From: Deltaproteobacteria bacterium
GTDB taxonomy: Bacteria; Desulfobacterota; Desulfobacteria; Desulfobacterales; JAFDMD01
DNA length: 64,000 bases
Assembly (NCBI GenBank): GCA_019306065.1
Contig: JAFDMF010000011.1
Location: 6,311-70,310 of the forward strand
Direction of reading: 5' to 3'
Shown here: positions 13,875 through 39,136 of the stretch, piece after piece
Numbering within the stretch: position 1 is the stretch's first letter
How the letters are laid out: each line of letters begins with the position of its first letter
Notes under the pieces: generated by a model
Databases searched by the model: none
Told to the model about the DNA's origin: nothing
The model's input: only the letters and a program-made list of their open reading frames with translations
Made by a program: the position numbers and the translations under genes

Positions 13875-16800
13875 ATGAAAAAACCGGAAATAAAAAAAAA
13901 AATAATACTTGCAAAAATTTGCGAAAAAAAGCCGGGTAACATCCCTGAAATCTATAACATGCAAAATATTGCCGATTTCGGATTAGATTATAAACTTTAC
14001 GATTATCAGCAAAAAGCCTTATCCAACATATTAAACTGCCTATATCTTTATTTTAACAATAAAAAAAAATTCTACGAGTTATATCAAAACAACGGATTGG
14101 ATACAGACTTTGAAAAAAATCTTCATATAACATACGCAGATAAAAGCTTTGATTTTTACAACCGTTTTTATCAAAAAAAAAACTCCGTAATACCCTTTAA
14201 AAACTTTATAAACAGGGCATCCTTTTGGATGGCTACAGGCTCCGGCAAAACCCTTGTTATGATAAAACTTATCCAAATACTCTTTAATCTGATACAAGCC
14301 GGAGAAATACCAAAAAAAAACATCCTTATACTCGCTCCAAAAGAGAACATATTAAGCCAGATAAAACAACAGATAGAAACCTTTAATAAAAGCTATAAAC
14401 TTACCATAAAACTTAAAAGCTTAAAAAACTTTGCCAAAACGGCTCGGCAAGGGGATATGTTTGCCAGCGAAAGCGTAACCGTCTTTTATTACAGGGCAGA
14501 CAACATATCCGATAAAGATAACGTTTCCGTAAAAAAAGACGCCTACAAACAAAGGATAGATTACGAAAATATATTAAATAACGGAAACTGGTATCTTCTG
14601 TTAGACGAAGCCCATAAAGGAATAAAAGACGCCAGCAAAAGACAACAATATTATACCGCTTTAAGCAAAAACGGTTTCTTGTTCAATTTTTCGGCAACCT
14701 TTGTAGAACTTATAGATATTGTAACCACAGTTTATAATTTCAACCTCAAAGAATTTATAGCCGCAGGATACGGCAAACGCCTAAAAATTATGAACTCCGA
14801 ATATAAATACTTTGATAAAAAAAATAAGGAATTTAGCGAAAAAGAAAGAGAAAAAATAATTTTAAAGTCCTTAATAACATTAGCGGCGGTAAAAAAAGAG
14901 AAAAAAAAAATAGACGATATAAAAGCCGGATTTTATCACAATCCCATGCTCGTTACCATTGCAAACAGGGTAAACGCTACGGATGCGGAACTTAAAATAT
15001 TCTTTAACAAGCTTGTTAAAATAGCAAAAGGGGATTTTGAAATAGAAGAGGCAAAAGAAAGCTTGGCAGATGATTTTAAAGAAAATTTAAAATATCATTT
15101 TGATATGGAAAAAATATCCGAAAATTTTTTGGACATAATAGAGGAAATTACAAAAGAGGATATTTTAAAACATATATTCAATACAGAAAAACAGGGAGGC
15201 ATAGAATATTCTACAATAGCCGGAAATTCCAAAGAGATAGCTTTTACCCATAAAAATTCCTCCGAGCCTTTCGCTTTAATATACATATCCGAAGCCGATA
15301 AATTTAAAGCCGAACTTCTTAATAATTACATAGAAAGCAAAACCCCATATACAGAAAGCTTTTTCAGCCGAATAAACGACAGCGAAAATCCTATAAACAT
15401 CCTCCTCGGCTCCCGTATATTTACGGAAGGATGGGACAGCAACAGACCCAACGTAATAAATTTTATAAACATAGGAGTAAATGAAGAGGCTAAAAAATTC
15501 GTTTTACAGGCTGCCGGCAGAGGCGTAAGAATAGAACCGGTAAAAAATTTTAGAAAAAGATTTAAAAAATTTAAAAATCATTCGGAATACGTAGAGGATG
15601 GCAAGTATGAAAAAATTCTTAAAACCGTTCAATCCATAGAAACCCTTTTTATATTTGCCACAAAAAAGGAAGTCCTTAAAAATATAATAGACGAATTAGA
15701 TAAAGACGATATTGATACATGGAAAAGAATAAAAGGAATAGAATACAACAAAAAAGCGCGGGAAAAAATATTCGTTTATACCGTCAAAAATCAAAAAACC
15801 GCACATTTTCAGTATAATATACATAAATCCGATTATCAAAACTGCCTTAATTTTATAGGAAATAAAAAAAATCCCAAAGATAAAATAATTTTATTTAACA
15901 ATACGGCGCATAATAAAAACATAATAAAAACCTTAAATAAAATAAGAAAAAAAAATAATTTTAAACACAACGCCAAAAAAATAGACCATCCGCCGCAACA
16001 AACCCTGTTTATTCTAAACGATTACTTTAATATGCCGGAAAAAGCCTTAGTCTTTGAAAAATTCAAACCAATAGAAAAAGAGATAAAACATTTTGAAAAA
16101 ATAGAGGCAAAAAATATAGGGAGCTATCAATTGCAAGGATTAGAAAAATATATAGAAGCCTCGTTAAAAAAAAATGGCTTAACATCCGAAGAAGATATAA
16201 AAAAAGCTAAGAAAAATTTAAACGCCTCTTTGGATAGAGGAGAATTAAAAGGGAAAGAATACAGGGAAAAACTAGAACAATATTCGGAACAATCAAAAAC
16301 GTTAAAAATCTTAAACAGAAAAAGCGGCAACAAATACCTTTGCAACATAGAAATCAATACCGAATTTCTTAACGAACATTATTATAAACCGATACTGTTT
16401 GCCGAAAACTATTATAAAGAATTTTTCAGATACATAATAAAAGAAAGATCGGAAATAGAATTTATAAAAGAATTGGAAAAATATTATAATACTAGAAAAA
16501 ACAGCTTAAAAGAATGCGATTGGTGGTATTTTTCCAAAATAATAGAAAATACGGATGAAATAAATATTCCTTATTACAACTCTATCACTCAAAAACCGTC
16601 TTATTTTTACCCGGATTTTATATTCTGGCTTAAAAAAAATAATAAATATTATATAATCTTTATAGACCCCAAAGGAACCGAACATACCGGAAACGCCATA
16701 GATAAAATAAAAGGATTTAAAAAATTTTTAAAAGGAGAATTAAGATATAAAAATAAAAAAGTTATTCCGAGATTATGGTATTTTAACGAAAAAAAACCGG

Positions 16801-16919
16801 CTAATGATTTGAAACAAGATTATCAAAAATATTGGATCGACGATTTAAAAAAAATCTTCGATCTTGATAAACCCGATTTAAAATATAAAAAGGAAACCTC
16901 CATAACTAAAAATATTTAG
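13875..16919 (+). CDS. res: Type III restriction enzyme Res subunit (SF2 helicase plus C-terminal PD-(D/E)xK nuclease)
   Basis: 1014 aa. Walker A MATGSGKT, DEAH-type LLLDEAHK, and C-terminal YPDFIFW...IIFIDPKG are present. Confidence 0.8.
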   Translation: MKKPEIKKKIILAKICEKKPGNIPEIYNMQNIADFGLDYKLYDYQQKALSNILNCLYLYFNNKKKFYELYQNNGLDTDFEKNLHITYADKSFDFYNRFYQKKNSVIPFKNFINRASFWMATGSGKTLVMIKLIQILFNLIQAGEIPKKNILILAPKENILSQIKQQIETFNKSYKLTIKLKSLKNFAKTARQGDMFASESVTVFYYRADNISDKDNVSVKKDAYKQRIDYENILNNGNWYLLLDEAHKGIKDASKRQQYYTALSKNGFLFNFSATFVELIDIVTTVYNFNLKEFIAAGYGKRLKIMNSEYKYFDKKNKEFSEKEREKIILKSLITLAAVKKEKKKIDDIKAGFYHNPMLVTIANRVNATDAELKIFFNKLVKIAKGDFEIEEAKESLADDFKENLKYHFDMEKISENFLDIIEEITKEDILKHIFNTEKQGGIEYSTIAGNSKEIAFTHKNSSEPFALIYISEADKFKAELLNNYIESKTPYTESFFSRINDSENPINILLGSRIFTEGWDSNRPNVINFINIGVNEEAKKFVLQAAGRGVRIEPVKNFRKRFKKFKNHSEYVEDGKYEKILKTVQSIETLFIFATKKEVLKNIIDELDKDDIDTWKRIKGIEYNKKAREKIFVYTVKNQKTAHFQYNIHKSDYQNCLNFIGNKKNPKDKIILFNNTAHNKNIIKTLNKIRKKNNFKHNAKKIDHPPQQTLFILNDYFNMPEKALVFEKFKPIEKEIKHFEKIEAKNIGSYQLQGLEKYIEASLKKNGLTSEEDIKKAKKNLNASLDRGELKGKEYREKLEQYSEQSKTLKILNRKSGNKYLCNIEINTEFLNEHYYKPILFAENYYKEFFRYIIKERSEIEFIKELEKYYNTRKNSLKECDWWYFSKIIENTDEINIPYYNSITQKPSYFYPDFIFWLKKNNKYYIIFIDPKGTEHTGNAIDKIKGFKKFLKGELRYKNKKVIPRLWYFNEKKPANDLKQDYQKYWIDDLKKIFDLDKPDLKYKKETSITKNI

Positions 16920-17162
16920 ACACAAAAAAGAATGATTATAAAAAGGTAAAGGAAATAATAACGGGATTTCTCGCTTCACTCGTCAAAATCTCATAATAAA
17001 AATAGCAATTTCACTGTTCAACAAAAAATTTTGTTCGTTTGCAAGGCTTGCAAAAATTTTAACCGCAGGCTTATTAAAAATAAGTCGAGGATTAAAATTC
17101 GAGCATAACACCAAAAACTGGCAAAATACGAAGTCGGACAGCAAAATTTAAACAGAGGAAAT
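16914..17162. repeat. Composite intergenic repeat copy ending in the SD of coaX
   Basis: It carries the same module order as 1481-1685: tagacacaaaaaagaatgattataaaaagg, gggatttctcgcttcactcgtc, ctcataataaaaata, ttgttcgtttgcaaggcttgcaaaaa, tggcaaaatacgaagtcggacagcaaaatttaaacagaggaaat. The coaX ATG follows. Confidence 0.7.
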
Positions 17163-17948
17163 ATGCTTTTTCTAATAGACGTAGGCAATACAAATATTGT
17201 AATGGGAGTATATGATAAGGATAAGCATGTGCGCGACTGGAGAATTCGCACAGTAGCGGATACTACCGAAGATGAATTTAACGCGCTTGTAAAAAACCTT
17301 TTTGCAGACGCAAAAATAACTCCGAATCTGATTAAAAAAACGGTTATATCCTGCGTTGTTCCCCCTATAATAGGAATTTTGAATAAATTTTGTAAAAAAT
17401 ATCTGGGGCATAATCCCTTATGGGTAGATCCGAAAACCTGCGGAGTTATGCCTATCCTTTATAAAAATCCCGCCGAAGTAGGAGCGGATAGAATTGTAAA
17501 CGGAGTAGCGGCTTATAATAAATATAAATCTTCACTTATAGTGGTTGATTTCGGCACAGCTACAACCTTTGATGCAATTTCGGAAAAAGGGGAATATCTG
17601 GGAGGCGCCATAAGCCCCGGAGTAACGATAGCCGCGGAAGCTTTATTTAAAAGAGCCTCGAAACTTCCGAGAGTGGATATTTTTACTCCGCCGGAAAATA
17701 TAATAGGAAAAGATACCATAGAAAGTATTAAATCCGGTATAATTTACGGCTATGCGGGGCTGGTAGAGGGCATAATAAAAAGAATGAGCGCCAGTATGGG
17801 AACTGATCCTATGGTTGTAGCTACGGGCGGACTTGCGGAATTAATGGCTAAAGTTACGGATGTCATAAAAAAGGTAGAACCAGATTTAACGCTTGAAGGA
17901 CTGAAATATATAGGAACTAATTTTTATCGAAATGAGAAAAATACATAG
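17163..17948 (+). CDS. coaX: Type III pantothenate kinase
   Basis: 261 aa. [20 protein letters not shown] and GADR motifs are present. Confidence 0.9.
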
Positions 17949-19947
17949 TAAAATACCCTCTGCCCTGAGTTAACGATCTTAATTCGGTAGAATATCCGAA
18001 CATTTTAGAAAGAGGAACTATTGCCGAGAGTATTTGTATTCCGTCATTTGCCTCTATACCCTCTATTTTTCCGCTTTTTGAATTAATATCTCCTATAACC
18101 TCTCCCATAAAAGCCTCTGGAACAAAAACTTTTACGTTCATTAGAGGTTCCAATAAAAAGGATTCTGCCTTTGCCAAAGCTTTTTGACATACGATTGAAG
18201 CGCTGGCTTTATAGGCAAGCTCGTCGCTAATATTCTCTTTAAAAGAGCCTCCTACAAGCGCGGCTTCTACGTCTATAACCGGATACCCTAAAACAATCCC
18301 GCTTTCAAGAGACTGTAATATACTCCCTTTTATAGCCTCAATAAATATATCCGGTATTGTTTCGTTATTAACCTCGCTTTTAAACAAATTGCCCATGCCT
18401 CTTTTTAAAGGAGTTAGTTGTATCTTAACCTCCGCAAAACGCCGCCGCCCGTCAATCTCTTTATCGAATATAAAGGCTTCGGTATGTTTAATTCCTATTG
18501 TTTCTCTATATACCACCTGCGGTCTGCCTACATTTACCTCCAAATTAAATTCTCTTTTCATTCGGCTTACTATTACTTCAAGATGAAGTTCACCCATGCC
18601 GGAAAGTATAGTCTGCCCGGTATCTTCGTTTGTTTTTACTTTAAGGGTAGGATCTTCTGCTGTATATTTTTCTATTATTTCGGAAAGCTTATCCTGATCC
18701 GAAACCGTTTTTGACTCTACGGCTATAGATATTACGGGCTCATAAACCTCAATGTTTTCCAAAATAAGCTTATCTGTTTCGCCGCACAAAGTTTCGCCTG
18801 TAGAAGAAAGTTTTAAACCTACAAGCCCTACTATACTGCCGGGCCCCGCTTTTTCGATTCTTTCCTTTTTATTTGCATGCATAAGCATTATACGGGCGAC
18901 TTTTTCTTTTATACCTCTTGCAGAATTATAAACGCTCTGCCCCGCGGTAAGCTCTCCGCTGTATATTCTGGCGTAACATAACTTGCGCCCTTCAAGCATT
19001 GCAACTTTAAATATTAATGCGGCAAGAGGTTTATTTTTTTGCGGAAAGCATTTTATAACCTCTTTGGAATCGGAAAGAACTCCTTCTATAGGAGGCACGT
19101 CAAACGGACTCGGCATAAATTGGACTATGGCGTCTAACATCGGCTGTATTCCCTTATTTCTAAGAGCGGAACCGCATAAAACCGGAACCAATTTTAAGCC
19201 GACCGTTCCTTTTCTTATGGAAGCTATTATCGCCTCGTTTGTTATCTCCTGTTCGCCTATATAAGCCTCCATAATATCATCGTCAAACTCCGCCGCGCTT
19301 TCTATTATTTTTTCTCTGTATTCAAGCGCCTGTTCAAGCATATTTTCCGGTATATCTTCAATTCTATAATTTTTGCCGAATTCCTCGGTCTCCCATATAA
19401 AACTTTTCATGCTCAAGAGGTCTATAACTCCGACAAAGGCATCTTCCGCCCCTAATGGAAGCTGAAGTATCAGCGGATTGGCGTTAAGTCTTTCCTTTAT
19501 CATTCGGACGGTTTTAAAAAAATCCGCCCCTATTCTATCCATTTTATTGATAAAGGCTATTTTCGGAACATAATATTTATCCGCCTGATGCCATACGGTT
19601 TCGGATTGCGGCTCCACGCCTCCAACAGCGCAAAAAACGCCTACGGCTCCGTCTAACACGCGCAAAGAACGCTCCACCTCTATGGTAAAATCCACATGTC
19701 CGGGAGTGTCTATTATCTGTATTATATTATTGTTCCATTCGCATGTAGTAACCGCTGATGTTATTGTAATGCCCCGTTCCTGCTCGTCTGGCATCCAGTC
19801 CATAACCGCTTGTCCGTTATGAACCTCTCCTATTTTATGAGAACGTCCTGTATAATATAAAATTCTTTCTGTAACCGTTGTTTTGCCCGCATCTATATGG
19901 GCTATTATGCCGATATTTCTTATTTTATCGGTTTGATTCTTTTTCAT
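17917..19947 (-). CDS. fusA: Elongation factor G family GTPase (stand-alone, probably an EF-G paralogue)
   Basis: 676 aa. [17 protein letters not shown] and NKMDR are present. It is not flanked by rpsL/rpsG/tuf, and its 3' end overlaps the convergent coaX by 32 nt. Confidence 0.85.
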
Positions 19948-30872: not shown

Positions 30873-32435
30873 ATGTTGAAAAAGTTCCTACTCAAATATT
30901 TTAGCCTGTTATTACTATTCTTTTTTTGCAATATATGTTCGGCTGCCGAACCTGCGCAAAACAACATATCCCTTATAGATGCCGTTCGCTTAACAATTAA
31001 AAACCAGCCTAATATAAAAATTCAAGAACAAGAAGTCGAAATAAAAAAAGGGGCTTTACAAACCGCAAAAGGCGAATTTGATACAGCCGTAAGCGCTTTT
31101 ATCGGCGCGGAACACAAAGAATTAACTTATCCTGCAAGCGAAAAAATAAAAGGAATTATAGAAAAATTAAAAACCGATACTACAACCTACGGAGTAAATT
31201 TAAATAAAAAACTTCGCGGCGGCGTTAAAATAGAGCCTCAATTAGACGTTACTTATACAAATTCTTCCACATCTCCCATTAATCAATACGAGCCTACAAA
31301 CATCGGGCGTATTAACTTTACAATAACGGTTCCTTTATTAAAAGGAAAAGGAAAAAAAGTTACAACCGCAACAGAAACCGCCGCCAAAAAAGAGTATGAG
31401 GCTTCTGTTTTGCAGCTGCGTCATAAAACATCCGAATATATTCTAAATACCGTTTCCACTTACTGGGAATATCTTGCAAGTTATAAAATACTTAAAAAAA
31501 GAAAAGAGGCGGAAAAAAATGCAAAGCGGTTAGTTGTAAATACCCAAAAACTTATTGCCGCAGATAAAAGTCCCGGATCCGATCTTGAGCAAATAGCGGC
31601 TAATTCGGAAGATAAAACAGCCGATAGAATAAATGCCGAACAATCCTTTTTTGAAGCAAAACAGAAATTAGGAATAGCGCTTGGCATTTCTTTTGAAAAA
31701 ATCAAACAACTGCCTTTGCCGTCCGATAATTTTTCTATTCCGCAAAAAAACAACATGATAGACTACGATAAAATATTTGAAAAAATTATAAAACAGGCAT
31801 TACAAAACCGAGCCGATTTTTTATCTGCAAAAAAACAGGAGGAAGCGGACAAAATTCTATTCGAAGCTTCAAAAAACAACCTTTTGCCGCAGATAGATTT
31901 AAAACTTAACGCCGGATACGAAGGGCTAAGCGAAAACGGCAATTATGCAGATACCCTCTCCGCTTTGCAAAATAATGTTGCAGGGCTAAACTATTCCGCT
32001 CTTTTAAATTATGAAATTCCGGTTGCAAATAACATTGCAAAAGGAATATTGTCTCAAAAAAAAGCTGCATATAATCAAAGCATAATTTCAAAAAAAGAAC
32101 TTGAAAGAAATATATGCTCTAACGTCATTACCGCATTATCCGATCTTAACAACGGCAAGCTATCTCTTATCAAATCCGAAAAAGCGGTTCTATTTTATAA
32201 AAAAGCCGTAAAAAACGAAGAAAATAAACTTATTATGGGAATCTCTACCATATTCGATTTAATCTCCATAGAAGATAAATTAATAAATTCAGCGCTTAAA
32301 GTAATATCTTCGGAACTTAAACTAAACAAAGCGTTGGCATATCTTCGTTTTGAAACAGGAAGCCTTATTTTAAACAAACAAAATTATGATTCTATAGGCA
32401 TTGAAGAATTAACTACAATTCCTTTTGTAAATTAA
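30873..32435 (+). CDS. TolC-family outer membrane efflux protein
   Basis: 520 aa with a signal peptide (LLLLFFFCNICSAAEP) and two-repeat coiled-coil/beta-barrel-type composition. Confidence 0.8.
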   Translation: MLKKFLLKYFSLLLLFFFCNICSAAEPAQNNISLIDAVRLTIKNQPNIKIQEQEVEIKKGALQTAKGEFDTAVSAFIGAEHKELTYPASEKIKGIIEKLKTDTTTYGVNLNKKLRGGVKIEPQLDVTYTNSSTSPINQYEPTNIGRINFTITVPLLKGKGKKVTTATETAAKKEYEASVLQLRHKTSEYILNTVSTYWEYLASYKILKKRKEAEKNAKRLVVNTQKLIAADKSPGSDLEQIAANSEDKTADRINAEQSFFEAKQKLGIALGISFEKIKQLPLPSDNFSIPQKNNMIDYDKIFEKIIKQALQNRADFLSAKKQEEADKILFEASKNNLLPQIDLKLNAGYEGLSENGNYADTLSALQNNVAGLNYSALLNYEIPVANNIAKGILSQKKAAYNQSIISKKELERNICSNVITALSDLNNGKLSLIKSEKAVLFYKKAVKNEENKLIMGISTIFDLISIEDKLINSALKVISSELKLNKALAYLRFETGSLILNKQNYDSIGIEELTTIPFVN

Positions 32436-32453
32436 AGGAGGTGGCGCTTATGA

Positions 32454-32529
32454 TTGTAACGGACTTTTAAACATCTTTTTATAATTTTATTTTAAAAAAC
32501 TTTTTTAAAAATTACTTGGAGGTAATAAT
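32454..32529 (+). promoter_or_regulatory. Conserved upstream segment of A-type precursor gene, copy 1 (near-identical to 33148-33224)
   Basis: ttgtaacggacttttaaacatctttttataattttattttaa...ttacttggaggtaataat contains a perfect tataat and a GGAGG SD. Confidence 0.5.
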
Positions 32530-32655
32530 ATGGACACATTAAATATTGAACAATACGGCGTTATGGAAATGGATACTGCCGAAATGCAAAAAACCAACGG
32601 CGGCATTTGTTGTATAATACTGGCGGCACTGGTGATATACCTGCTTACGAGATAG
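32530..32655 (+). CDS. Double-glycine-leader precursor peptide A1 (41 aa)
   Basis: MDTLNIEQYGVMEMDTAEMQKTNGG|ICCIILAALVIYLLTR. GGAGG lies 8 nt upstream. Not in the ORF track because it is under 60 aa. Confidence 0.6.
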   Translation: MDTLNIEQYGVMEMDTAEMQKTNGGICCIILAALVIYLLTR

Positions 32656-32705
32656 TGCCCGCTAACATAAACAAATCAGATAACAAATAAGGAGGCGATT
32701 GAACA

Positions 32706-32897
32706 ATGAAAGAAGAAAAACAAAATATTGTTGAAGCGGAGCTTACCGATAATGATCTCGAAGCTTTGGACGATAGTATGCTGCGAGACATTTCCGGCGG
32801 TAAAAGCCTTGCTTATGCTATGAAATACGGAATTATTGCCATGTATGGCATTTTTCCTATTTTAACGGAAATAAAAACGGCAACTGTATATAAATAA
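32706..32897 (+). CDS. Double-glycine-leader precursor peptide B1 (63 aa)
   Basis: MKEEKQNIVEAELTDNDLEALDDSMLRDISGG|KSLAYAMKYGIIAMYGIFPILTEIKTATVYK, with an AAGGAGG SD. Confidence 0.65.
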   Translation: MKEEKQNIVEAELTDNDLEALDDSMLRDISGGKSLAYAMKYGIIAMYGIFPILTEIKTATVYK

Positions 32898-32908
32898 AAT
32901 ACTTAACT

Positions 32909-32946
32909 CGGATGCCCTGAATGTAGCGGGGCATCCGTTATTTTTA
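32909..32946 (+). terminator. Hairpin terminator after B1
   Basis: cggatgccc / gggcatccg 9-bp stem followed by ttattttta. Confidence 0.6.
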
Positions 32947-32957
32947 ATTTTACTTTA

Positions 32958-33137
32958 ATTAAAAAAATATAATCGCAAAAAAAAATGATTATAAAAAGGT
33001 AGAGGAAACAATAAAGGAATTTCTCGCTTTGCTCGACAAGACAGGCTTTTTATTTTTTTTGTGTTCTGTTGATAAATGTTATTTTTGCTTGTCATTTCGA
33101 CAAGCGCAGCGAGGAGAAATCCCTTAATTATCTGAAC
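32958..33137. repeat. MITE-like inverted-repeat element, full copy, between the two precursor cassettes
   Basis: aaaaatgattataaaaaggtagaggaaacaataaaggaatttctcgctttgctcgacaagacagg, a spacer, then tgtcatttcgacaagcgcagcgaggagaaatccc. Track ORF 32955-33146 is an artefact of it. Confidence 0.75.
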
Positions 33138-33147
33138 CGCTAACAAT

Positions 33148-33224
33148 TTGTAACGGACTTTTAAACATCTTTTTATAATTTTATTTTAATAAACTTTTTT
33201 AAAAAATTACTTGGAGGTAATAAA
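33148..33224 (+). promoter_or_regulatory. Conserved upstream segment of A-type precursor gene, copy 2
   Basis: Near-identical to 32454-32529 apart from about 3 substitutions or indels. Confidence 0.5.
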
Positions 33225-33359
33225 ATGGAAAAACTTATGGTTAATAATTATGGCATGGAAGAATTAACCTCTGATGCAATGAAAGAAACCGATGGCGGCA
33301 TTTTGATAGCTCTTATGTTAACAGCAGCTTTAATTTTAGTATCTAACAATGCGTATTAA
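33225..33359 (+). CDS. Double-glycine-leader precursor peptide A2 (44 aa)
   Basis: MEKLMVNNYGMEELTSDAMKETDGG|ILIALMLTAALILVSNNAY, with a GGAGG SD. Confidence 0.6.
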   Translation: MEKLMVNNYGMEELTSDAMKETDGGILIALMLTAALILVSNNAY

Positions 33360-33443
33360 AATTTAACTATTAAATAAAATAATTATTAATATAATGTTAA
33401 AATTGTTATAAATCCAAATTTAACAAAAGGAGGCGATTAAACA

Positions 33444-33587
33444 ATGAAAGAAGAAAAACAAGATATTGTTGAAGAGGAGCTTACCGATAATGATCTCGAA
33501 GCTCTTGATGAAAGTATGATGAAAGATATTAACGGCGGATATTGGCCGATAATGATGTATGGAGTATTTCTTCCTTATTCTATTTAG
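33444..33587 (+). CDS. Double-glycine-leader precursor peptide B2 (47 aa)
   Basis: MKEEKQDIVEEELTDNDLEALDESMMKDINGG|YWPIMMYGVFLPYSI, with an AAGGAGG SD. The leader is almost identical to that of B1. Confidence 0.65.
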   Translation: MKEEKQDIVEEELTDNDLEALDESMMKDINGGYWPIMMYGVFLPYSI

Positions 33588-33648
33588 AACGCTCCTGTTT
33601 ATTCCGATTAAATTAATGTATGGAATATTTTTCAAATACTAAACCACC

Positions 33649-33697
33649 CATTTCGGATGCCATACCTTTTATATGGCATCCGAAATGCTACTTTTTA
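33649..33697 (+). terminator. Hairpin terminator after B2
   Basis: catttcggatgccata / tatggcatccgaaatg 16-bp perfect stem with a 7-nt loop, followed by ctacttttt. Confidence 0.6.
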
Positions 33698-33749
33698 AAT
33701 TATTATAGATAAGAATACCTTTATGTAACAAGAAATAAGGAACAACATA

Positions 33750-35279
33750 ATGGAATATACGCCGATAAGCTCCGTATGGGAAATAACTATGGCTTGCAAT
33801 ATGCGCTGCGGACATTGCGGCTCCGAATGCTCCGTAAAACAACCGGACGAACTAACCCCCGAAGAAGCGTTAAAATTATGCGACAACCTTGCCGAATTAG
33901 GCTTAAAACTTATAACCCTTTCCGGCGGCGAGCCTTTTACCCGTCCGGACTGGCATAAAATTGCAAAAAGATTAACCGAACACGACATTATTACCAATAT
34001 AATATCCAACGGCTGGTTTATAGACGATAATATTATAAACATGGCATCTGCCGCAGGCATTGGAACAATTGCCATAAGTTTAGACGGCAACAAAGAAATA
34101 CACGATTCCATCCGAAAAGAAGGCTCTTTTAACAGAGTAATGAACGCTCTTGAAATAATGAAAAAAAGAGGTTTTACATCTTCAATAGTTACCACCATAA
34201 TGAAACATAATCTGCCTTTATTGCCGGAAATAAAAGAAATACTTATAAACAAAGGCGTTTCTCAGTGGCAGCTTCAAATTGGAACGCCTATGGGAAACCT
34301 TAAAAAAAACAGCCATAACGTAATTACTCCGGATCAGATGGAAGAAATTATTGATTTTGCTTATGAAGTTATGCAGGAAAAAACCATTAGAATAGCCCTT
34401 GCGGACGATATAGGCTATTATACCAAAAAAATTACGGCAATAGCAGGAAGCATATACGGCGAAGGTACCGTATGGCAGGGATGCGGGGCAGGAAAAAGCG
34501 TAATAGGAATTCTTCATAACGGAGAAATTACCGGCTGCACGTCGCTTCGGGATAGAAATTTTATAGAAGGCAGCATACGCGAAACCCCCTTAAAAGAGTT
34601 ATGGACAAGACCGGGCGCTTTTGCTTGGAACAGAGAGTTAAGCATAGAAAAACTTACAGGCTTTTGTAAAAAATGCAGATACGCCGAAAAATGCCTTGGC
34701 GGATGCACATCTCATAAACGGTTTACCGGAAACACCTTAACCGAAAATAATTACTGCGCATATAAATCTTCAATAGAAAAATTAATCCCGAAAATAAACA
34801 ATATAAAAGATATTAAAACCCTAATGGCGCGGGCGGAAAAATCAATATCTTTAAATCTAAATGAAGTTGCGGAAATATGCCTCTTAAAAGCCCTTGAAAT
34901 ATCCCCTTCGGACGTCAATATTTTAAATATGCTCGGATATGTATATTTTCAGTTTAAAGATTACAAACGTTGTATGGAAACAAATAAAAAAGCCCTTAAA
35001 ATATCCCATAACAACCCTTATTCCTTAAAAGGACTGGGGCTTGCTTTGGCAAAACTCGGCAAAACAAAAGAAGGCGTAGAAACCCTAAAAAAATCTATTG
35101 AATTTGCAGAAAAAGATTTTATGGATCCGTATCATGACCTTGCCGTAACCCTTTGTGAAGCGGGAGACTTAAATCAAGCGTTAGAGATTCTTGAAAAAGG
35201 AAGAAGCATATCAAAAAGCTTTGAAAAACAGAGTCAGGCAATATATGAGGATTTGATTAAACAGAAACAAAATAATTAA
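33750..35279 (+). CDS. Radical SAM / SPASM-domain peptide-modifying enzyme with C-terminal TPR repeats
   Basis: 509 aa. CNMRCGHCG (CxxxCxxC) sits at residues 16-24. SPASM-like Cys clusters are GCGAGKS...GEITGCTS and FCKKCRYAEKCLGGCTSH. The C-terminal region of about 150 aa is TPR-like (NMLGYVYFQFKDYKRCMETNKKALKI...). Confidence 0.85.
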   Translation: MEYTPISSVWEITMACNMRCGHCGSECSVKQPDELTPEEALKLCDNLAELGLKLITLSGGEPFTRPDWHKIAKRLTEHDIITNIISNGWFIDDNIINMASAAGIGTIAISLDGNKEIHDSIRKEGSFNRVMNALEIMKKRGFTSSIVTTIMKHNLPLLPEIKEILINKGVSQWQLQIGTPMGNLKKNSHNVITPDQMEEIIDFAYEVMQEKTIRIALADDIGYYTKKITAIAGSIYGEGTVWQGCGAGKSVIGILHNGEITGCTSLRDRNFIEGSIRETPLKELWTRPGAFAWNRELSIEKLTGFCKKCRYAEKCLGGCTSHKRFTGNTLTENNYCAYKSSIEKLIPKINNIKDIKTLMARAEKSISLNLNEVAEICLLKALEISPSDVNILNMLGYVYFQFKDYKRCMETNKKALKISHNNPYSLKGLGLALAKLGKTKEGVETLKKSIEFAEKDFMDPYHDLAVTLCEAGDLNQALEILEKGRSISKSFEKQSQAIYEDLIKQKQNN

Positions 35280-35297
35280 TTACGCTAAATAAAAAAT

Positions 35298-35450
35298 TTG
35301 GATATTACAAAATATGAAGTTATGGAAATGGATGCTACTGAAATGAGTGAATTCGATGGTGGTATTGTTTTTGTTACTGCGTTAGGTTTAGGAATGGGGG
35401 CTTTTGGAGTTGGCTATGTTATCGGTTATTGGTGGAATCATCGTCGTTAA
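35298..35450 (+). CDS. Double-glycine-leader precursor peptide A3 (about 50 aa; start uncertain, TTG or an internal ATG)
   Basis: (L/M)DITKYEVMEMDATEMSEFDGG|IVFVTALGLGMGAFGVGYVIGYWWNHRR. The leader aligns with A1 (YGVMEMDTAEM..NGG). No clear SD. Confidence 0.5.
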   Translation: MDITKYEVMEMDATEMSEFDGGIVFVTALGLGMGAFGVGYVIGYWWNHRR

Positions 35451-35460
35451 CTGATTAATT

Positions 35461-35497
35461 ATTTAGGTAGCCCTATGATAACAAGGGCTACCTAAAT
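35461..35497 (+). terminator. Hairpin after A3
   Basis: atttaggtagccct / agggctacctaaat 14-bp perfect stem with a 9-nt loop. Confidence 0.55.
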
Positions 35498-35597
35498 AAA
35501 ACCAGCTTGTTTCTTTTAAGACTATATAATAGATGTTATCAAAAATGAGGATTTTAAACTATCTTTTTTAATTCAATAGAAATAAGAGGTTGTAATT

Positions 35598-35777
35598 ATG
35601 GCTAATAAAGCATTATTAATAATAGTTTTTACTAGTTTAGCGTCTTTAGTAATATTTCTTACAACAATAATCAAAAATAAATTGGTAGTCTCTCAAATCA
35701 ACTGGGTAGTAATTATAATTTTAATTATGGTAGGATTTCTTATAGGCTTCCTTTTGGGATATATTGCAAAAGGTTAA
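35598..35777 (+). CDS. Small two-TM membrane protein (59 aa), candidate immunity/accessory protein
   Basis: MANKALLIIVFTSLASLVIFLTTIIKNKLVVSQINWVVIIILIMVGFLIGFLLGYIAKG. It has an AAGAGG SD and lies between the precursor gene and the export genes. Confidence 0.45.
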   Translation: MANKALLIIVFTSLASLVIFLTTIIKNKLVVSQINWVVIIILIMVGFLIGFLLGYIAKG

Positions 35778-35789
35778 TACTTACAAATA

Positions 35790-36968
35790 ATGCAAAACTC
35801 CATATACCCACACGATATAATAAACAATACTTCGGAACAAATACTTGCTCCGGATGCCGCAAAAGGTCATATAATCTATTCCTTATTTATTTTATCAATA
35901 ATCATAATGCTTATACTTCTGCCTATTTTAAAAGTTACGATTTCAATTCAAAGCAACGGCATAATACGCCCGGTTATAGAAAAAAACGAAATAAAGTCAT
36001 TGGCAACAGGAATAATAAACGAGGTTTTTGTTAAAGAAAACCAAACAATAAAAAAAAATCAACCCTTGCTTATTCTTGATAATTCCGTTTTAAATAAAGA
36101 ATTGCAACTTATTAATTACCAAGAAAAAGAAGAAAAAAATTCAATTTATGATCTGGAACTATTATTAAATTCCGATTTATCAAATCTATCCGAACAGCTA
36201 ATAAAAACTTCCGATTTTAAAAACCTGCATTATAAAAACGAATACCTTTATTTTAAAAATCAGCTTAAAGAAAATTTTTATAATCAAACAAAAGCAAAAA
36301 AAGAATTAAACAGATATAAAACCTTAAATAAAGATAAATTGGCAAGCTTAAGCGAATTGGAACAAAAGGATCTGGAACTGTCAAAACTGCAATTTCAATA
36401 TAAAATGCTAATAGAAAATCAGAATGCAAAATGGAATAAAGAACTATTGGCTGGCAGGTTAAAACTAAACGAGTTAAAAACCAAAAAAAAACAGACCGAA
36501 AAAGAAAAGGAATTTTCTGTTATTAAATCTCCCGTATCCGGAACAATAGAGCAGTTTTCCGGCATAACCGCCGGCGGATACATACAAGCAGGGCAGCTTA
36601 TAGCGGTTATTTCCCCAAGCAGCGATATAATAGCCGAAGTTTATATGTCTCCTCAAGATATAGGGCTTATAAACATAGGAACAAAAGCAAACATTCAGGT
36701 TGACGCTTTTAATTACAATCAATGGGGGCTTATTAAAGGGGAAGTAATAAAAATTTCGGACGACTTTTATCCCATAGATAACCAACCCTTTTTTAGAGTA
36801 AAATGCAAATTAAATAAAAACTATTTACAGCTTAAAAACGGATATAAAAGATATTTAAAAAAAGGAATGACCATTAGAACCCGTTTTTTAATAGCAAAAA
36901 GAAGCCTGTTCCAATTATTATACGATAAAGTTGATGACTGGATAAATCCTTTACAAAAAAGCGAATAA
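35790..36968 (+). CDS. HlyD-family secretion adaptor (periplasmic membrane-fusion protein)
   Basis: 392 aa with an N-terminal TM, a long coiled coil, and the family-typical VIKSPVSGTIEQ...AGQLIAVISP lipoyl/beta-barrel regions. Confidence 0.85.
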   Translation: MQNSIYPHDIINNTSEQILAPDAAKGHIIYSLFILSIIIMLILLPILKVTISIQSNGIIRPVIEKNEIKSLATGIINEVFVKENQTIKKNQPLLILDNSVLNKELQLINYQEKEEKNSIYDLELLLNSDLSNLSEQLIKTSDFKNLHYKNEYLYFKNQLKENFYNQTKAKKELNRYKTLNKDKLASLSELEQKDLELSKLQFQYKMLIENQNAKWNKELLAGRLKLNELKTKKKQTEKEKEFSVIKSPVSGTIEQFSGITAGGYIQAGQLIAVISPSSDIIAEVYMSPQDIGLINIGTKANIQVDAFNYNQWGLIKGEVIKISDDFYPIDNQPFFRVKCKLNKNYLQLKNGYKRYLKKGMTIRTRFLIAKRSLFQLLYDKVDDWINPLQKSE

Positions 36969-36970
36969 TA

Positions 36971-39136
36971 ATGCTAAAAAAATCCTTAAAATTCAAACAG
37001 CACGATATTACGGACTGCGGAGCTGCATGCCTTGCTTCAATAGCCGCTCATTACGGCTATAAAATGCCGATATCTCGAATCAGACAATATGCATCCACCG
37101 ATAAAAAAGGAACAAATGTTTTGGGAATGATAGAAGCCGCGGAAAAACTCGGCTTTATGGCAAAAGGGGTAAAAGGACCCTTTGAAAGCCTTTTTAAAAT
37201 ACCCAAACCTGCAATAGCCCATGTTGTGGTTAAAGAAGTCTTGCATCATTTTGTAGTTATTTACGAAACTACGCCCAATCATATAATTATTATGGATCCG
37301 AGCGACGGAACTTTTTATAAAAAAACCCATGAAGAATTTAAAAAAGAATGGACAGGCGTTATAATTCTTTTAGCGCCTTCCGAAGAATTTGAACAAGGAG
37401 ATAACACAACTTCGGCTTTCAAAAGATTTTGGGACCTTATTAAGCCCCATAAAACGGTTATGACAGAAGCCCTATTCGGAGCCGTTATTACTACCATACT
37501 CGGACTTTCAACCGCTATTTATGTTCAAAAAATAGTTGACTATGTAATAGTGGACGGCAATAAAAACCTGCTTAACCTTATGAGCGTTCTAATGATAGCT
37601 ATTCTTCTTCTCCGCATCTTTATAGGTTTTGCAAGAAACCTCTTTGTATTGCGGACAGGTCAAAAAATAGACGTTAAGCTTATTTTGGGATATTATAAAC
37701 ATCTGTTAACCCTTCCTCAAAGATTTTTCGATACAATGAGAATAGGAGAAATAGTTTCCCGTTTAAACGACGCTATAAAAATACGCTCTTTTATAAACGA
37801 GGTTGCTATAGATATGGTTGTTGATATTTTTATAGTAATATTCTCATTTGCTTTACTGTTTGTTTATTCTTGGAAAATAGCCCTAATAATGCTTATATCC
37901 GTACCACTTTATGCGGCGGTTTATTATATTGTAAATAAAATAAACAAAAAATATCAAAGAAAAATAATGGAAAACGCAGCGGACGTAGAAACTCAGCTTG
38001 TGGAATCTTTAAACTCCGTAGCTACGGTAAAAAGATTCGGGCTTGAATGGTATTCCAACATAAAAACCGAAACCCGCTTTGTAAAACTTCTTAAATCAAT
38101 ATATAAATCTGGAATAAATTCAATATTTGCGGGAAGCGCATCCTCTTTTGTATCCTCTCTTTTTACAATCATTTTATTATGGATAGGAACCTACTTTGCA
38201 TTAGATAATCAAATAACCCCCGGCGAACTAATGTCTTGTTATGCTTTAATAGGCTATTTTACCGAACCCGTAAGTAGCCTTATCAATGTAAACAGAACAA
38301 TACAGGACGCCCTTATTGCAGCAGATCGTCTTTTTGAAATAATGGATTTGGAAAGAGAACAAGCTCAAGGCTCAATAGACCTTACAAAAGAGATGATAGA
38401 AGATATTCATTTTAATAACGTCTCCTTTCGTTACGGAACCAGAGTAGAAGTTTTTAAAAACCTAAATTTAACAATACAAAAAGGGAAAGTAACAGGCATT
38501 GTAGGCGAGAGCGGCTCCGGCAAAACAACCTTAATCTCTTTGCTGCAGAAAATATACCTTATTAATAACGGATACATAAAAATAGGAAAATATGATATTA
38601 AAGATATTAAAAATGAAAATATCCGAAACATTATAAGCGTAGTGCCTCAAAAAATAGATATATTTGCAGGCAGCGTAATAGAAAACATTGCATTGGGAGA
38701 TTTTGAACCGAATATGGAAAAAATTATATCCGTATGCGACGACATAGGCATTAAAAACTTTATAGAAAACCTGCCTAACGGATTTCAAACATATTTGGGC
38801 GAAAGAGGCGCAAATCTTTCAGGAGGAGAAAGCCAGAGACTTGCAATTGCCAGAGCCTTTTATAAAAATCCGGAAATACTAATATTAGACGAAGCTACAT
38901 CGTCATTGGATTCCGCTGCGGAAAAATCGATTCAAAAAGCGATATTCTCCTTAAAAAAACAGAATAAAACGGTTATAATAATAGCTCATCGTTTAAGTAC
39001 GGTTATGAACTCCGATAAAATTATAGTTTTAAAACAAGGCGAAACCGTAGAAGAAGGAACACATCAAAACTTGCTTGCCAAAAAAGGAGAATATTACTTG
39101 CTTTGGCAATATCAATTTCCTTTATCTTTAACATAG
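36971..39136 (+). CDS. Peptidase C39 domain-containing ABC exporter (PCAT)
   Basis: 721 aa. It has an N-terminal QHDITDCGAACLASI (catalytic Cys), six TM segments, Walker A GESGSGKTT, signature LSGGESQR and Walker B ILILDEATS. Confidence 0.9.
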   Translation: MLKKSLKFKQHDITDCGAACLASIAAHYGYKMPISRIRQYASTDKKGTNVLGMIEAAEKLGFMAKGVKGPFESLFKIPKPAIAHVVVKEVLHHFVVIYETTPNHIIIMDPSDGTFYKKTHEEFKKEWTGVIILLAPSEEFEQGDNTTSAFKRFWDLIKPHKTVMTEALFGAVITTILGLSTAIYVQKIVDYVIVDGNKNLLNLMSVLMIAILLLRIFIGFARNLFVLRTGQKIDVKLILGYYKHLLTLPQRFFDTMRIGEIVSRLNDAIKIRSFINEVAIDMVVDIFIVIFSFALLFVYSWKIALIMLISVPLYAAVYYIVNKINKKYQRKIMENAADVETQLVESLNSVATVKRFGLEWYSNIKTETRFVKLLKSIYKSGINSIFAGSASSFVSSLFTIILLWIGTYFALDNQITPGELMSCYALIGYFTEPVSSLINVNRTIQDALIAADRLFEIMDLEREQAQGSIDLTKEMIEDIHFNNVSFRYGTRVEVFKNLNLTIQKGKVTGIVGESGSGKTTLISLLQKIYLINNGYIKIGKYDIKDIKNENIRNIISVVPQKIDIFAGSVIENIALGDFEPNMEKIISVCDDIGIKNFIENLPNGFQTYLGERGANLSGGESQRLAIARAFYKNPEILILDEATSSLDSAAEKSIQKAIFSLKKQNKTVIIIAHRLSTVMNSDKIIVLKQGETVEEGTHQNLLAKKGEYYLLWQYQFPLSLT

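What the first reader, a model, noticed from the sequence alone, without database searches (positions are those of the whole stretch)
30873..39136. Secreted-peptide island: TolC, five double-glycine precursors of two families, rSAM-SPASM-TPR enzyme, HlyD and C39-ABC exporter
Seen: one same-strand block between fdhD and pfk carries the following.
- A TolC-family OMP.
- Five short ORFs whose leaders end in GG (32530, 32706, 33225, 33444, 35298).
- A radical SAM enzyme with N-terminal CxxxCxxC, SPASM-type Cys clusters and TPR repeats.
- A 59-aa two-TM ORF.
- An HlyD adaptor.
- An ABC exporter with an N-terminal C39 peptidase domain.
Established: C39-ABC (PCAT) exporters cleave precursors after Gly-Gly and work with HlyD and TolC in diderms. 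SPASM radical SAM enzymes install crosslinks in RiPPs.
Inference: this is a three-component-exported, possibly rSAM-modified peptide system with two unrelated core families under one exporter. I could not match either peptide family to a RiPP or bacteriocin class I know.
Basis: partly seen in the sequence, partly recalled or inferred. Interest (0 to 1): 0.8.

Follow-up and report, generated by a model that had tools for sequence, protein, structure and literature searches.

The report
Predicted spliceotide and bacteriocin export island
This is a real peptide-secretion gene cluster in which one of the two peptide families most likely has a tyrosine cut out of its backbone by a radical SAM enzyme, making a protease-inhibitor-type "spliceotide" (a RiPP class first described in 2018), while the other family looks like ordinary unmodified bacteriocins that share the same exporter.

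Summary
All ten ORFs lie on the + strand at the stated coordinates.

**Family B (B1, B2).** The cores carry K/M-Y-G-[IV] sites. The adjacent rSAM-SPASM-TPR enzyme is 35% identical (E 2e-66) to PlpX, the experimentally characterised tyramine splicease that acts on X-Y-G motifs. Its homologues occur in 375 species genomes. In 69 of 86 loci they sit beside an ORF with a P-x-Y-G-[IV]-x-P-type site. These ORFs include GG-leader and NHLP-leader peptides and YG-repeat proteins. In the GG-leader cores, YG occurs 123 times against 14.7 expected.

The best reading is a splicease-type RiPP: tyramine excision gives an α-keto-β-amino acid. PCAT cleavage after Gly-Gly and HlyD/TolC export follow.

**Family A (A1-A3).** This is a separate, widespread family of lactobin A/cerein 7B-like double-glycine peptides. 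Elsewhere it occurs with PCAT and HlyD but without any rSAM.

**Verdict.** Both "unmatched" families therefore map to known kinds. The chemistry is inferred, not shown. The enzyme scores below the curated cut-off of the PlpX family model. The TPR fusion is the only feature here not matched to a described system, and I could not check it against Scott et al. 2022 (not held).

The parts
30873..32435 (+). TolC-family outer-membrane channel (520 aa, signal peptide)
   Evidence: Pfam OEP 93 bits. TIGR01844 79 bits, below its cut-off. The orthologue in L001 is 42% identical and sits in the same cluster.
32530..32655 (+). A1 precursor: MDTLNIEQYGVMEMDTAEMQKTNGG|ICCIILAALVIYLLTR. Class-II-bacteriocin-like, hydrophobic core, no YG in the core.
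   Evidence: The family A profile finds 268 representatives at E<=1e-3. Relatives are named lactobin A/cerein 7B class IIb bacteriocin.
32706..32897 (+). B1 precursor: ...DLEALDDSMLRDISGG|KSLAYAMKYGIIAMYGIFPILTEIKTATVYK. Two predicted splice sites (KYG, MYG).
32909..32937 (+). Terminator-like hairpin plus T-run after the A1-B1 unit
   Evidence: Fold -20.8 kcal/mol, z -4.6.
33225..33359 (+). A2 precursor: MEKLMVNNYGMEELTSDAMKETDGG|ILIALMLTAALILVSNNAY
33444..33587 (+). B2 precursor: ...DLEALDESMMKDINGG|YWPIMMYGVFLPYSI. One predicted splice site. MMYGVFLP resembles the PlpA3 site AMYGVVFP.
33649..33687 (+). Terminator-like 16-bp hairpin after the A2-B2 unit, just upstream of the rSAM gene
   Evidence: Fold -24.7 kcal/mol, z -10.4.
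33750..35279 (+). Radical SAM / SPASM / C-terminal TPR enzyme (509 aa), predicted tyramine splicease
   Evidence: 35% identity to PlpX over 342 aa, E 2e-66.
35298..35450 (+). A3 precursor (TTG start): MDITKYEVMEMDATEMSEFDGG|IVFVTALGLGMGAFGVGYVIGYWWNHRR. Core is rich in GxxxG.
35459..35499 (+). 16-bp hairpin after A3
   Evidence: -24.7 kcal/mol, z -5.8.
35598..35777 (+). 59-aa two-TM protein. Candidate immunity or accessory protein; weak inference.
   Evidence: RBS read. No family match. Singleton in the protein collection.
35790..36968 (+). HlyD-family periplasmic adaptor
   Evidence: Pfam HlyD_3 63 bits. TIGR01843 165 bits. 56% identical orthologue in L001.
36971..39136 (+). Peptidase-C39 ABC exporter (PCAT)
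   Evidence: TIGR01193 552 bits, above the 524-bit cut-off. Pfam Peptidase_C39 127 bits. Catalytic Cys and His motifs read directly.

Best explanation
The island combines two peptide modules behind one tripartite exporter.

**Module 1: a spliceotide-type RiPP.**
- B1 and B2 are made with a double-glycine leader.
- The rSAM-SPASM-TPR enzyme acts on the X-Y-G sites in their cores: K-Y-G and M-Y-G in B1, M-Y-G in B2.
- By analogy with PlpX, it excises a tyramine equivalent from the Tyr. This rejoins the backbone as an α-keto-β-amino acid (ketoamide), with a loss of 135.07 Da per site.
- The fused TPR domain probably replaces the separate PlpY activator or the leader helix of known systems in recruiting the substrate.

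**Module 2: unmodified bacteriocin-like peptides.**
- A1-A3 are short hydrophobic double-glycine peptides of a lactobin A/cerein 7B-like family. They do not need the rSAM.
- The 59-aa membrane protein may give immunity.

**Export.**
- The PCAT cuts both families after Gly-Gly. It passes them through HlyD and TolC out of the diderm cell.

**Expression.**
- Each precursor unit ends in a strong hairpin. This is likely to give more precursor transcript than enzyme or exporter transcript.

**Likely role of mature B peptides.**
- Protease inhibition through the ketoamide warhead.

**What is shown and what is inferred.**
- Shown: gene content, motifs, homology and family-wide co-occurrence.
- Inferred: the chemistry, the TPR role, immunity, attenuation and bioactivity.
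For: **Homology to a characterised splicease**
- PlpX was recovered next to its published substrate PlpA3. It scores 824 bits on TIGR04103, above the cut-off.
- The window enzyme aligns with PlpX at 35% identity over 342 residues, covering the rSAM and SPASM domains (E 2e-66).
- Its two best NCBIfam hits are TIGR03913 (232 bits) and TIGR04103 (230 bits). The next family, AhbD, scores 171 bits. PlpX itself hits TIGR03913 at 395 bits.

**Substrate motif across the enzyme family**
- Next to homologues there are 50 distinct GG-leader cores in 40 loci, with 135 Y-[GA] sites.
- YG occurs 123 times against 14.7 expected from composition. 80% of core Tyr residues are followed by G or A.
- The consensus is [IPV]-x-P-[LK]-Y-G-[IV]-x-P.
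- Strict sites are 7.5-fold denser within 3 kb of the enzyme gene than at 4 kb or more (Fisher p 1e-46). 69 of 86 loci have a same-strand ORF with at least one strict site.
- This consensus matches the published splice tags PIRPLYGLPI and AVAAMYGVVFP (PMC10533398).

**Close relatives keep the arrangement**
- L001 (64% identity): four YG peptides, HlyD, PCAT, TolC.
- L087 (66% identity): one PLYGIL peptide.

**Shared leader types**
- NHLP-leader precursors lie beside homologues (TIGR03793 above cut-off). This leader class is also present in the plp cluster (PMC11002830).

**Link to protease inhibition**
- Published spliceotides inhibit Ser and Cys proteases (PMC11626197).
- In L024 and L035 the YG-repeat substrate is fused to a chagasin-type peptidase inhibitor I42 domain.

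**Family A is independent of the rSAM**
- Paludibacteraceae locus L093 has at least 6 A-type peptides, a PCAT 57% identical to the window's, and HlyD. It has no rSAM.

**Exporter and hairpins**
- PCAT membership.
- Hairpins.
Against: - No chemistry was observed.
- The enzyme scores far below the curated cut-offs of TIGR04103 (230 vs 725 bits) and TIGR03913 (232 vs 592 bits). It is therefore a distinct clade, and rSAM-SPASM enzymes at 35% identity can differ in reaction.
- 12 of 135 sites have Ala instead of Gly. Whether spliceases accept this is unknown to me.
- The window's sites lack the Pro at -2 that is common in the family.
- No PlpY homologue is present.
- The TPR role is conjecture. The domain is kept even where the substrate is a full-length protein without a GG leader (L024), so it may not bind leaders at all.
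- Only 29 of 84 loci have a PCAT within the flank.
- Immunity and attenuation roles rest on position and analogy only.
Confidence: 0.74

Rival explanations
1. The rSAM-TPR enzyme targets the same Y-G-[IV] sites but performs a different radical reaction. One candidate is a Tyr-to-Ile/Val C-C cyclophane of the triceptide type (aromatic-X-X motif). Others are another Tyr crosslink or an epimerisation. That would define a new RiPP modification class.
For: - The enzyme is below the curated cut-offs of both splicease-related models.
- The residue after Gly is almost always Ile or Val (128/135), and Pro is frequent at +4. A three-residue crosslink motif would also produce this pattern.
- Y-A variants exist.
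Against: - No triceptide maturase family appears among its 25 best NCBIfam hits. The two splicease-clade models lead by about 60 bits.
- The site context is nearly identical to experimentally spliced tags, PLYGLP and MYGVVFP. These also have a hydrophobic residue after Gly.
- The chagasin fusion fits an inhibitor warhead.
Confidence: 0.13
2. All five peptides are unmodified class II bacteriocins or signalling peptides. The rSAM gene is a passenger that acts on an unrelated substrate.
For: - The leaders are ordinary double-glycine leaders.
- TIGR03949 gives weak hits to A1, A3 and B2.
Against: - The enzyme gene lies between precursor genes.
- Its homologues sit beside YG-rich ORFs in most of the 86 loci, across several phyla.
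- A ~8-fold excess of YG in the cores has no explanation without a site-specific enzyme.
Confidence: 0.04
3. Family A peptides are also rSAM substrates, for example at the conserved Y-G-V/M in their leaders.
For: - A1 and A2 leaders contain QYGV and NYGM.
- A and B genes are paired in tandem units.
Against: - The same L-N-x-Y-G-V-x-E-M leader is conserved in relatives that have PCAT and HlyD but no rSAM nearby.
- A3 has Y-E at that position.
- Closer rSAM relatives (L001, L087) lack A peptides.
- A modification in a discarded leader would have no product.
Confidence: 0.04

Closest known systems
Spliceotides: PlpX/PlpY/PlpA of Pleurocapsa sp. PCC 7319 (type I) and binary systems such as RhaX/RasX of Rheinheimera (type II)
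   Same: - rSAM-SPASM enzyme homologous over its whole catalytic region (35% identity).
- X-Y-G sites in the core with near-identical context.
- Leaders ending in Gly-Gly. PlpA3 ends ...EAIAGG.
- A PCAT in the neighbourhood. The plp locus also has one.
- No PlpY, as in the binary systems (PMC11414181).
   Different: - The enzyme carries a C-terminal TPR domain of about 130 residues that PlpX lacks.
- It scores below the TIGR04103 cut-off.
- The leaders are short (32 aa) double-glycine leaders, not Nif11 or NHLP.
- The host is a diderm Deltaproteobacteria MAG with dedicated HlyD and TolC genes.
- Unmodified bacteriocin-like peptides are co-encoded.
- I could not check whether the TPR-fused clade is one of the 'types' of Scott et al. 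2022 (Chem 8:2659), because the paper is not held.
Class IIb-like double-glycine bacteriocins (lactobin A/cerein 7B family, TIGR03949) with PCAT export
   Same: - Family A has a GG leader and a short hydrophobic, GxxxG-containing core.
- It occurs in multiple copies and is exported by a PCAT.
- Relatives are named this way by JGI and NCBI.
   Different: - A1 and A3 score 16-17.5 bits, below the 21.5-bit cut-off.
- The leader has its own L-N-x-Y-G-V-x-E-M-x-x-x-E-M-x-E-T-D-G-G signature, seen here in Bacteroidales and Paludibacteraceae MAGs and in many unnamed metagenome contigs.
- No activity is known.
Tripartite PCAT-HlyD-TolC microcin exporters of diderms (e.g. colicin V CvaAB-TolC; from established knowledge)
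   Same: C39-ABC, membrane fusion protein and TolC-type channel. Cleavage after Gly-Gly is coupled to export.
   Different: Here the TolC gene is inside the cluster, and the cargo includes a predicted rSAM-modified peptide.
Triceptides (three-residue cyclophane RiPPs made by rSAM-SPASM 3-CyFE enzymes)
   Same: rSAM-SPASM enzyme acting on repeated aromatic-X-X motifs in GG-leader peptides.
   Different: No sequence affinity to those maturase families was detected. It is considered only as the rival chemistry.

Membership tests
Spliceotide system (functional class) | rSAM-SPASM enzyme homologous to an experimentally verified splicease | tested here: met
   35% identity, E 2e-66, over 342 aa to PlpX. 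PlpX identity was confirmed by its position next to PlpA3 and by TIGR04103 at 824 bits.
Spliceotide system (functional class) | X-Y-G motif(s) in the precursor core next to the enzyme gene | tested here: met
   B1 has KYG and MYG; B2 has MYG. Family-wide, YG occurs 123 times vs 14.7 expected, with 7.5-fold local enrichment, p 1e-46.
Spliceotide system (functional class) | Loss of a tyramine equivalent (-135.07 Da) giving an α-keto-β-amino acid | not testable with these tools
   Needs co-expression and HR-MS/MS.
Spliceotide type I (PlpXY) | Separate small PlpY activator gene next to the splicease | tested here: not met
   No such ORF between 33587 and 35598. Binary systems also lack it (PMC11414181). 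A TPR domain is fused instead.
NCBIfam TIGR04103 (nif11-class peptide rSAM maturase 3; the PlpX family) | Whole-protein score at or above the curated cut-off of 725 bits | tested here: not met
   229.7 bits. C. aceticum and P. cellulosolvens homologues score 230 and 214 bits.
NCBIfam TIGR03913 (GDL motif peptide-associated rSAM/SPASM maturase) | Score at or above 591.75 bits | tested here: not met
   232.4 bits.
SPASM subgroup of radical SAM enzymes | CxxxCxxC plus the 7-Cys motif CX9-15GX4C...CX2CX5CX3C...C | tested here: met
   C16/C20/C23; C245...G258-x4-C263; C306-x2-C309-x5-C315-x3-C319; C336. All are invariant in 30 homologues. Pfam SPASM 31 bits, above 21.5.
Peptidase-containing ABC transporter (PCAT, TIGR01193) | Score at or above 523.85 bits, and catalytic Cys and His motifs in the C39 domain | tested here: met
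   552.1 bits. QHDITDC16GAAC and H-F-V-V...I-M-D-P read directly.
Double-glycine leader peptides | GG at -2/-1 with hydrophobic residues at -4, -7, -12, -15 | tested here: met
   B1 I/L/L/L; B2 I/M/L/L; A1 T/M/M/V (read). Actual cleavage is not testable here.
Class IIb bacteriocin, lactobin A/cerein 7B family (TIGR03949), for family A | Score at or above 21.5 bits | tested here: not met
   A1 16.3 bits, A3 17.5 bits, A2 no hit. Relatives found with the family profile carry this name in JGI and NCBI, so family A is a neighbouring family, not a curated member.
TolC family (TIGR01844) / type I secretion HlyD (TIGR01843) | Scores at or above 225 and 209 bits | tested here: not met
   79 and 165 bits. 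The broader Pfam OEP and HlyD_3 domains are met.

The most novel reading that the evidence does not exclude
The TPR-fused clade is a mechanistically distinct kind of Tyr-directed rSAM maturase.

- One possibility is that it performs a reaction other than tyramine excision at Y-G-[IV].
- The other is that it is a splicease whose TPR domain recognises the repeated core motif itself. That would let one enzyme process short GG-leader peptides, NHLP peptides and leaderless full-length proteins (chagasin-fused, dockerin-fused) at many sites.

In that case the window's B peptides would be founding examples of an undescribed subclass with a natural export route.
Probability: 0.2. Interest if true: 0.7.

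Novelty: new member of a known kind. Interest (0 to 1): 0.42.

Why it matters
[quoted passage not shown] Most work has used heterologous co-expression.
- This cluster contains an intact leader-cleaving exporter, so it predicts the exact secreted products. An example is the B2 core YWPIMMYGVFLPYSI with one α-keto-β-Met.
- Ketoamide peptides are potent Ser/Cys protease inhibitors with antiviral activity (PMC11626197). A single-polypeptide splicease with a built-in TPR domain could be a simpler tool for installing β-amino acids in proteins.
- For genome annotation, a family of about 375 species-level 'radical SAM protein' entries, and their 'hypothetical' neighbours, can be given a testable function.

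Tried and rejected
**Literature and structure searches that gave nothing**
- Scott et al. 2022 (Chem 8:2659), the paper that defines splicease types, is not held. I could not settle whether the TPR clade is already typed.
- No held paper contains both 'splicease' and 'tetratricopeptide'.
- Supplements of two Piel-lab papers are not held.
- The PDB has no splicease. Only generic TPR and distant rSAM hits were found.

**Look-ups of limited use**
- The contig for P0002 was too short to show neighbours.
- The contigs for P0230 and P0192 were also too short.
- L089, a 54% relative, has no visible YG substrate.

**Method limits and negative results**
- My first regex for GG leaders missed protein substrates and NHLP leaders. 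An unbiased motif count replaced it.
- Horizontal transfer: island GC is 33.7% against 35.0% for the rest of the window, so there is no signal.
- No extra hidden precursors were found in the gaps or elsewhere in the window.

**Not attempted**
- Structure prediction of an enzyme-precursor fusion was not attempted.


Full report
**1. Observation**

ORF listing and domain scans confirm every element at the stated coordinates on the + strand.
- OEP/TolC-family protein with a signal peptide, 30873-32435.
- Five short ORFs with Gly-Gly leaders.
- A 509-aa radical SAM enzyme, 33750-35279. It has C16-x3-C20-x2-C23, a complete 7-Cys SPASM pattern and C-terminal TPR repeats. The Cys residues are invariant in 30 homologues.
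- A 59-aa two-TM ORF with a good ribosome-binding site.
- An HlyD adaptor.
- A C39-ABC exporter. It passes the curated TIGR01193 cut-off (552 vs 524 bits) and keeps the catalytic Cys and His motifs.

The flanks are alr/fdhD and a pfk-type gene. Island GC is 33.7% and the rest of the window is 35.0%, so there is no transfer signal. The window is a Deltaproteobacteria MAG. All the peptides are 'hypothetical' singletons in a 15-billion-protein collection.

**2. Two peptide families, one tandem duplication**

A1-B1 and A2-B2 are duplicated units. About 50 bp upstream, including the GGAGG site, is almost identical. The B leader is almost identical, with some synonymous changes. The cores have diverged. 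This is the usual pattern for real precursor genes.

Each unit, and A3, is followed by a very stable hairpin (-20.8, -24.7 and -24.7 kcal/mol; z -4.6, -10.4 and -5.8). The first two hairpins have T-runs. By analogy with other bacteriocin operons, I read these as partial terminators that raise precursor transcript over enzyme and exporter transcript. This is an inference.

**3. The enzyme family and its neighbours**

The rSAM has more than 600 full-length homologues with the same rSAM+SPASM+TPR architecture. They are 45-50% identical across Clostridia, Spirochaetales, Desulfobacterales, Bacteroidales and others. There are 375 in one-genome-per-species GTDB contigs. None is named beyond 'radical SAM protein'.

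Neighbourhoods are strikingly uniform.
- L001 (64% identical enzyme) has four GG-leader peptides, HlyD, PCAT and TolC.
- Clostridium aceticum has PCAT, an LcnD-type accessory protein, an 80-aa GG peptide with four x-Y-G-I sites, then the enzyme.
- L087 (66% identical) has a GG peptide ending ...PLYGILMCSKN.

Across 84 loci I found 50 distinct GG-leader cores in 40 loci, carrying 135 Y-[GA] sites.
- YG is seen 123 times against 14.7 expected from composition.
- 80% of all core Tyr residues are followed by G or A.
- The consensus is [IPV]-x-P-[LK]-Y-G-[IV]-x-P, with up to 5-6 sites per peptide.

An unbiased six-frame count gives 0.333 strict sites per 1000 aa within 3 kb of the enzyme gene and 0.044 at 4 kb or more. 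That is 7.5-fold, Fisher p 1e-46. 69 of 86 loci have a same-strand ORF with at least one strict site, and 41 have two or more.

The window's B1 (AMKYGII, AMYGIFP) and B2 (IMMYGVFLP) fit at positions -1, +1 and +2.

**4. What the motif means**

X-Y-G is the target of tyramine spliceases. These are rSAM-SPASM enzymes, with PlpX as prototype. They excise a tyramine equivalent (C8H9NO, 135.06 Da) from Tyr and rejoin the backbone as an α-keto-β-amino acid (PMC11414181, PMC11626197, PMC9811515).

Published splice tags are PIRPLYGLPI and AVAAMYGVVFP. PlpA3 itself ends its leader in ...EELEAIAGG.

I recovered PlpX by finding PlpA3 in the protein collection and reading its locus.
- It scores 824 bits on TIGR04103, above the cut-off, and 395 bits on TIGR03913.
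- The window enzyme is 35% identical to it over 342 residues (E 2e-66).
- The window enzyme's two best NCBIfam hits are these same two models (232 and 230 bits). They lead the next family by about 60 bits, but both are far below the curated cut-offs.

So the enzyme belongs to the wider splicease clade but is not a member of the curated PlpX equivalog. PlpX lacks the TPR domain and needs PlpY. Later 'binary' systems lack PlpY and use a leader helix instead (PMC11414181). The fused TPR is a plausible substitute. This is an inference.

**5. Further family-level support**
- Some homologues sit beside NHLP-leader precursors with one AYGV site (TIGR03793 above cut-off). This leader class is also present in the plp cluster (PMC11002830).
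- Others sit beside full-length proteins. L024 and L035 encode an N-terminal chagasin-type peptidase inhibitor I42 domain followed by 8-14 repeats of C-[LV]-[VL]-K-Y-G-[IVFM]-P.
- L004 and L049 encode Pro/Thr-rich YG sites fused to a type I dockerin.
- The chagasin fusion fits the published protease-inhibitor activity of ketoamide spliceotides.
- Because the TPR is kept with leaderless substrates, it may recognise the core motif rather than the leader.

**6. Family A**

A profile of A1-A3 finds 268 representatives at E<=1e-3 in 1.84 billion proteins.
- These are 40-90-aa peptides with the leader M-K-x-L-D-L-N-x-Y-G-V-x-E-M-N-x-x-E-M-x-E-T-D-G-G and hydrophobic cores.
- Several are named 'lactobin A/cerein 7B family class IIb bacteriocin' by JGI or NCBI.
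- In a Paludibacteraceae contig at least six copies lie with a CPBP-type protein, HlyD and a PCAT 57% identical to the window's. There is no rSAM.
- Closer rSAM relatives (L001, L087) lack A peptides.

Family A is therefore an independent PCAT cargo. The Y-G-V in its leader is a family-wide leader feature, not evidence of splicing. C. aceticum shows the same mixture of a YG peptide and Gly-rich class-II-like peptides in one locus, so mixed cargo under one exporter recurs.

**7. Mechanism proposed**

The mechanism is as given in the best explanation: splicing of B1 and B2 at K/M-Y-G, PCAT cleavage after Gly-Gly with HlyD/TolC export, and unmodified A1-A3 sharing the exporter.

The confidences below are for the individual components. 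The 0.74 reported with the best explanation is for the combined picture.
- About 0.75-0.8 that the rSAM modifies B1 and B2 at the YG sites by splicing.
- About 0.9 that the PCAT, HlyD and TolC process and export GG peptides.
- About 0.8 that A peptides are rSAM-independent.
- About 0.3-0.4 for the TPR, immunity and attenuation details.

**8. Rivals**
- A different radical reaction at the same sites, such as a cyclophane-type crosslink (0.13).
- The rSAM is a passenger (0.04).
- A peptides are also substrates (0.04).

**9. Novelty**

Spliceotides have been known since 2018. A 2022 survey predicted 939 systems in 189 genera by looking for YG-rich ORFs next to rSAM-SPASM genes (PMC10849128, PMC10533398). 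Its starting set was the UniProt reference proteomes. This very YG-rich family has cultured members carrying UniProt/UniRef entries, such as C. aceticum and Alkaliphilus metalliredigens. It was therefore probably captured, but I could not read that paper.

- I file the island as a new member of a known kind.
- Possibly undescribed specifics are the TPR fusion, the in-cluster TolC/HlyD/PCAT route in a diderm, and co-encoded class-II-like peptides.
- Its claim that neither family matches a known class does not hold.
- Its expected -2 Da signature does not hold either.

Noticed in passing
L024:8806-9873 and L035:8796-9806: Beside rSAM-TPR homologues lie full-length proteins. Each has an N-terminal chagasin-type peptidase inhibitor I42 domain followed by 8-14 repeats of C-[LV]-[VL]-K-Y-G-[IVFM]-P. 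They look like protein substrates that combine two protease-inhibitor principles.
   Followed up: partly
L004:9362-9919 and L049:798-1379 (Spirochaetales MAGs): The ORF next to the enzyme has a signal/TM segment, Pro/Thr-rich YG sites (PVYGT, VVYGA, PLYGII) and a C-terminal type I dockerin. This suggests a scaffold-anchored modified protein.
   Followed up: partly
L042:9645-9986, L064:3845-4201, L065:9644-9982 (Syntrophomonas-type loci): These loci have NHLP-leader precursors (TIGR03793 above cut-off) with a single A-Y-G-V site. The same loci carry extra GG peptides whose hydrophobic cores end in R-[SG]-R-W. That second family has no assigned enzyme.
   Followed up: partly
L056:11599-11817, L045:9724-9903, L051:31-192, L063:7842: Some sites read Y-A-[IV] instead of Y-G-[IV] (12 of 135). 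I do not know whether the enzyme accepts Ala here.
   Followed up: no
L008:4234-5400 (Orenia metallireducens): Three further GG-leader peptides beside the enzyme carry L-S-G-[NVR]-I-x-M-x-P and no Tyr. Ser appears to take the place of Tyr in the motif.
   Followed up: no
window 32530-32655, 33225-33359; L093: Family A leaders contain a conserved L-N-x-Y-G-V-x-E-M segment. It superficially resembles a splice site, but it is conserved in loci without any rSAM.
   Followed up: yes
window 32909-32937, 33649-33687, 35459-35499: Three very stable hairpins follow each precursor unit. The first two share the stem core CGGAUGCC/GGCAUCCG.
   Followed up: partly
window 35298-35450: A3 starts at a TTG 19 bp after the rSAM stop, with no clear ribosome-binding site. 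An in-frame ATG at 35322 would give a 14-residue leader. N-terminal similarity to A1 and A2 favours the TTG.
   Followed up: partly
L002:1086-3776 and 16596-18184 (Clostridium aceticum): An agr-like quorum-sensing set (AgrB, LytTR response regulator, histidine kinase) lies upstream of the cluster. A truncated duplicate of the PCAT and LcnD genes lies downstream, next to CPBP (Rce1-like) genes.
   Followed up: no
L089:399-1502: A 54%-identical rSAM-TPR enzyme has no YG substrate nearby. Instead a 367-aa protein with no Pfam match lies upstream and a BTAD-domain regulator downstream.
   Followed up: no
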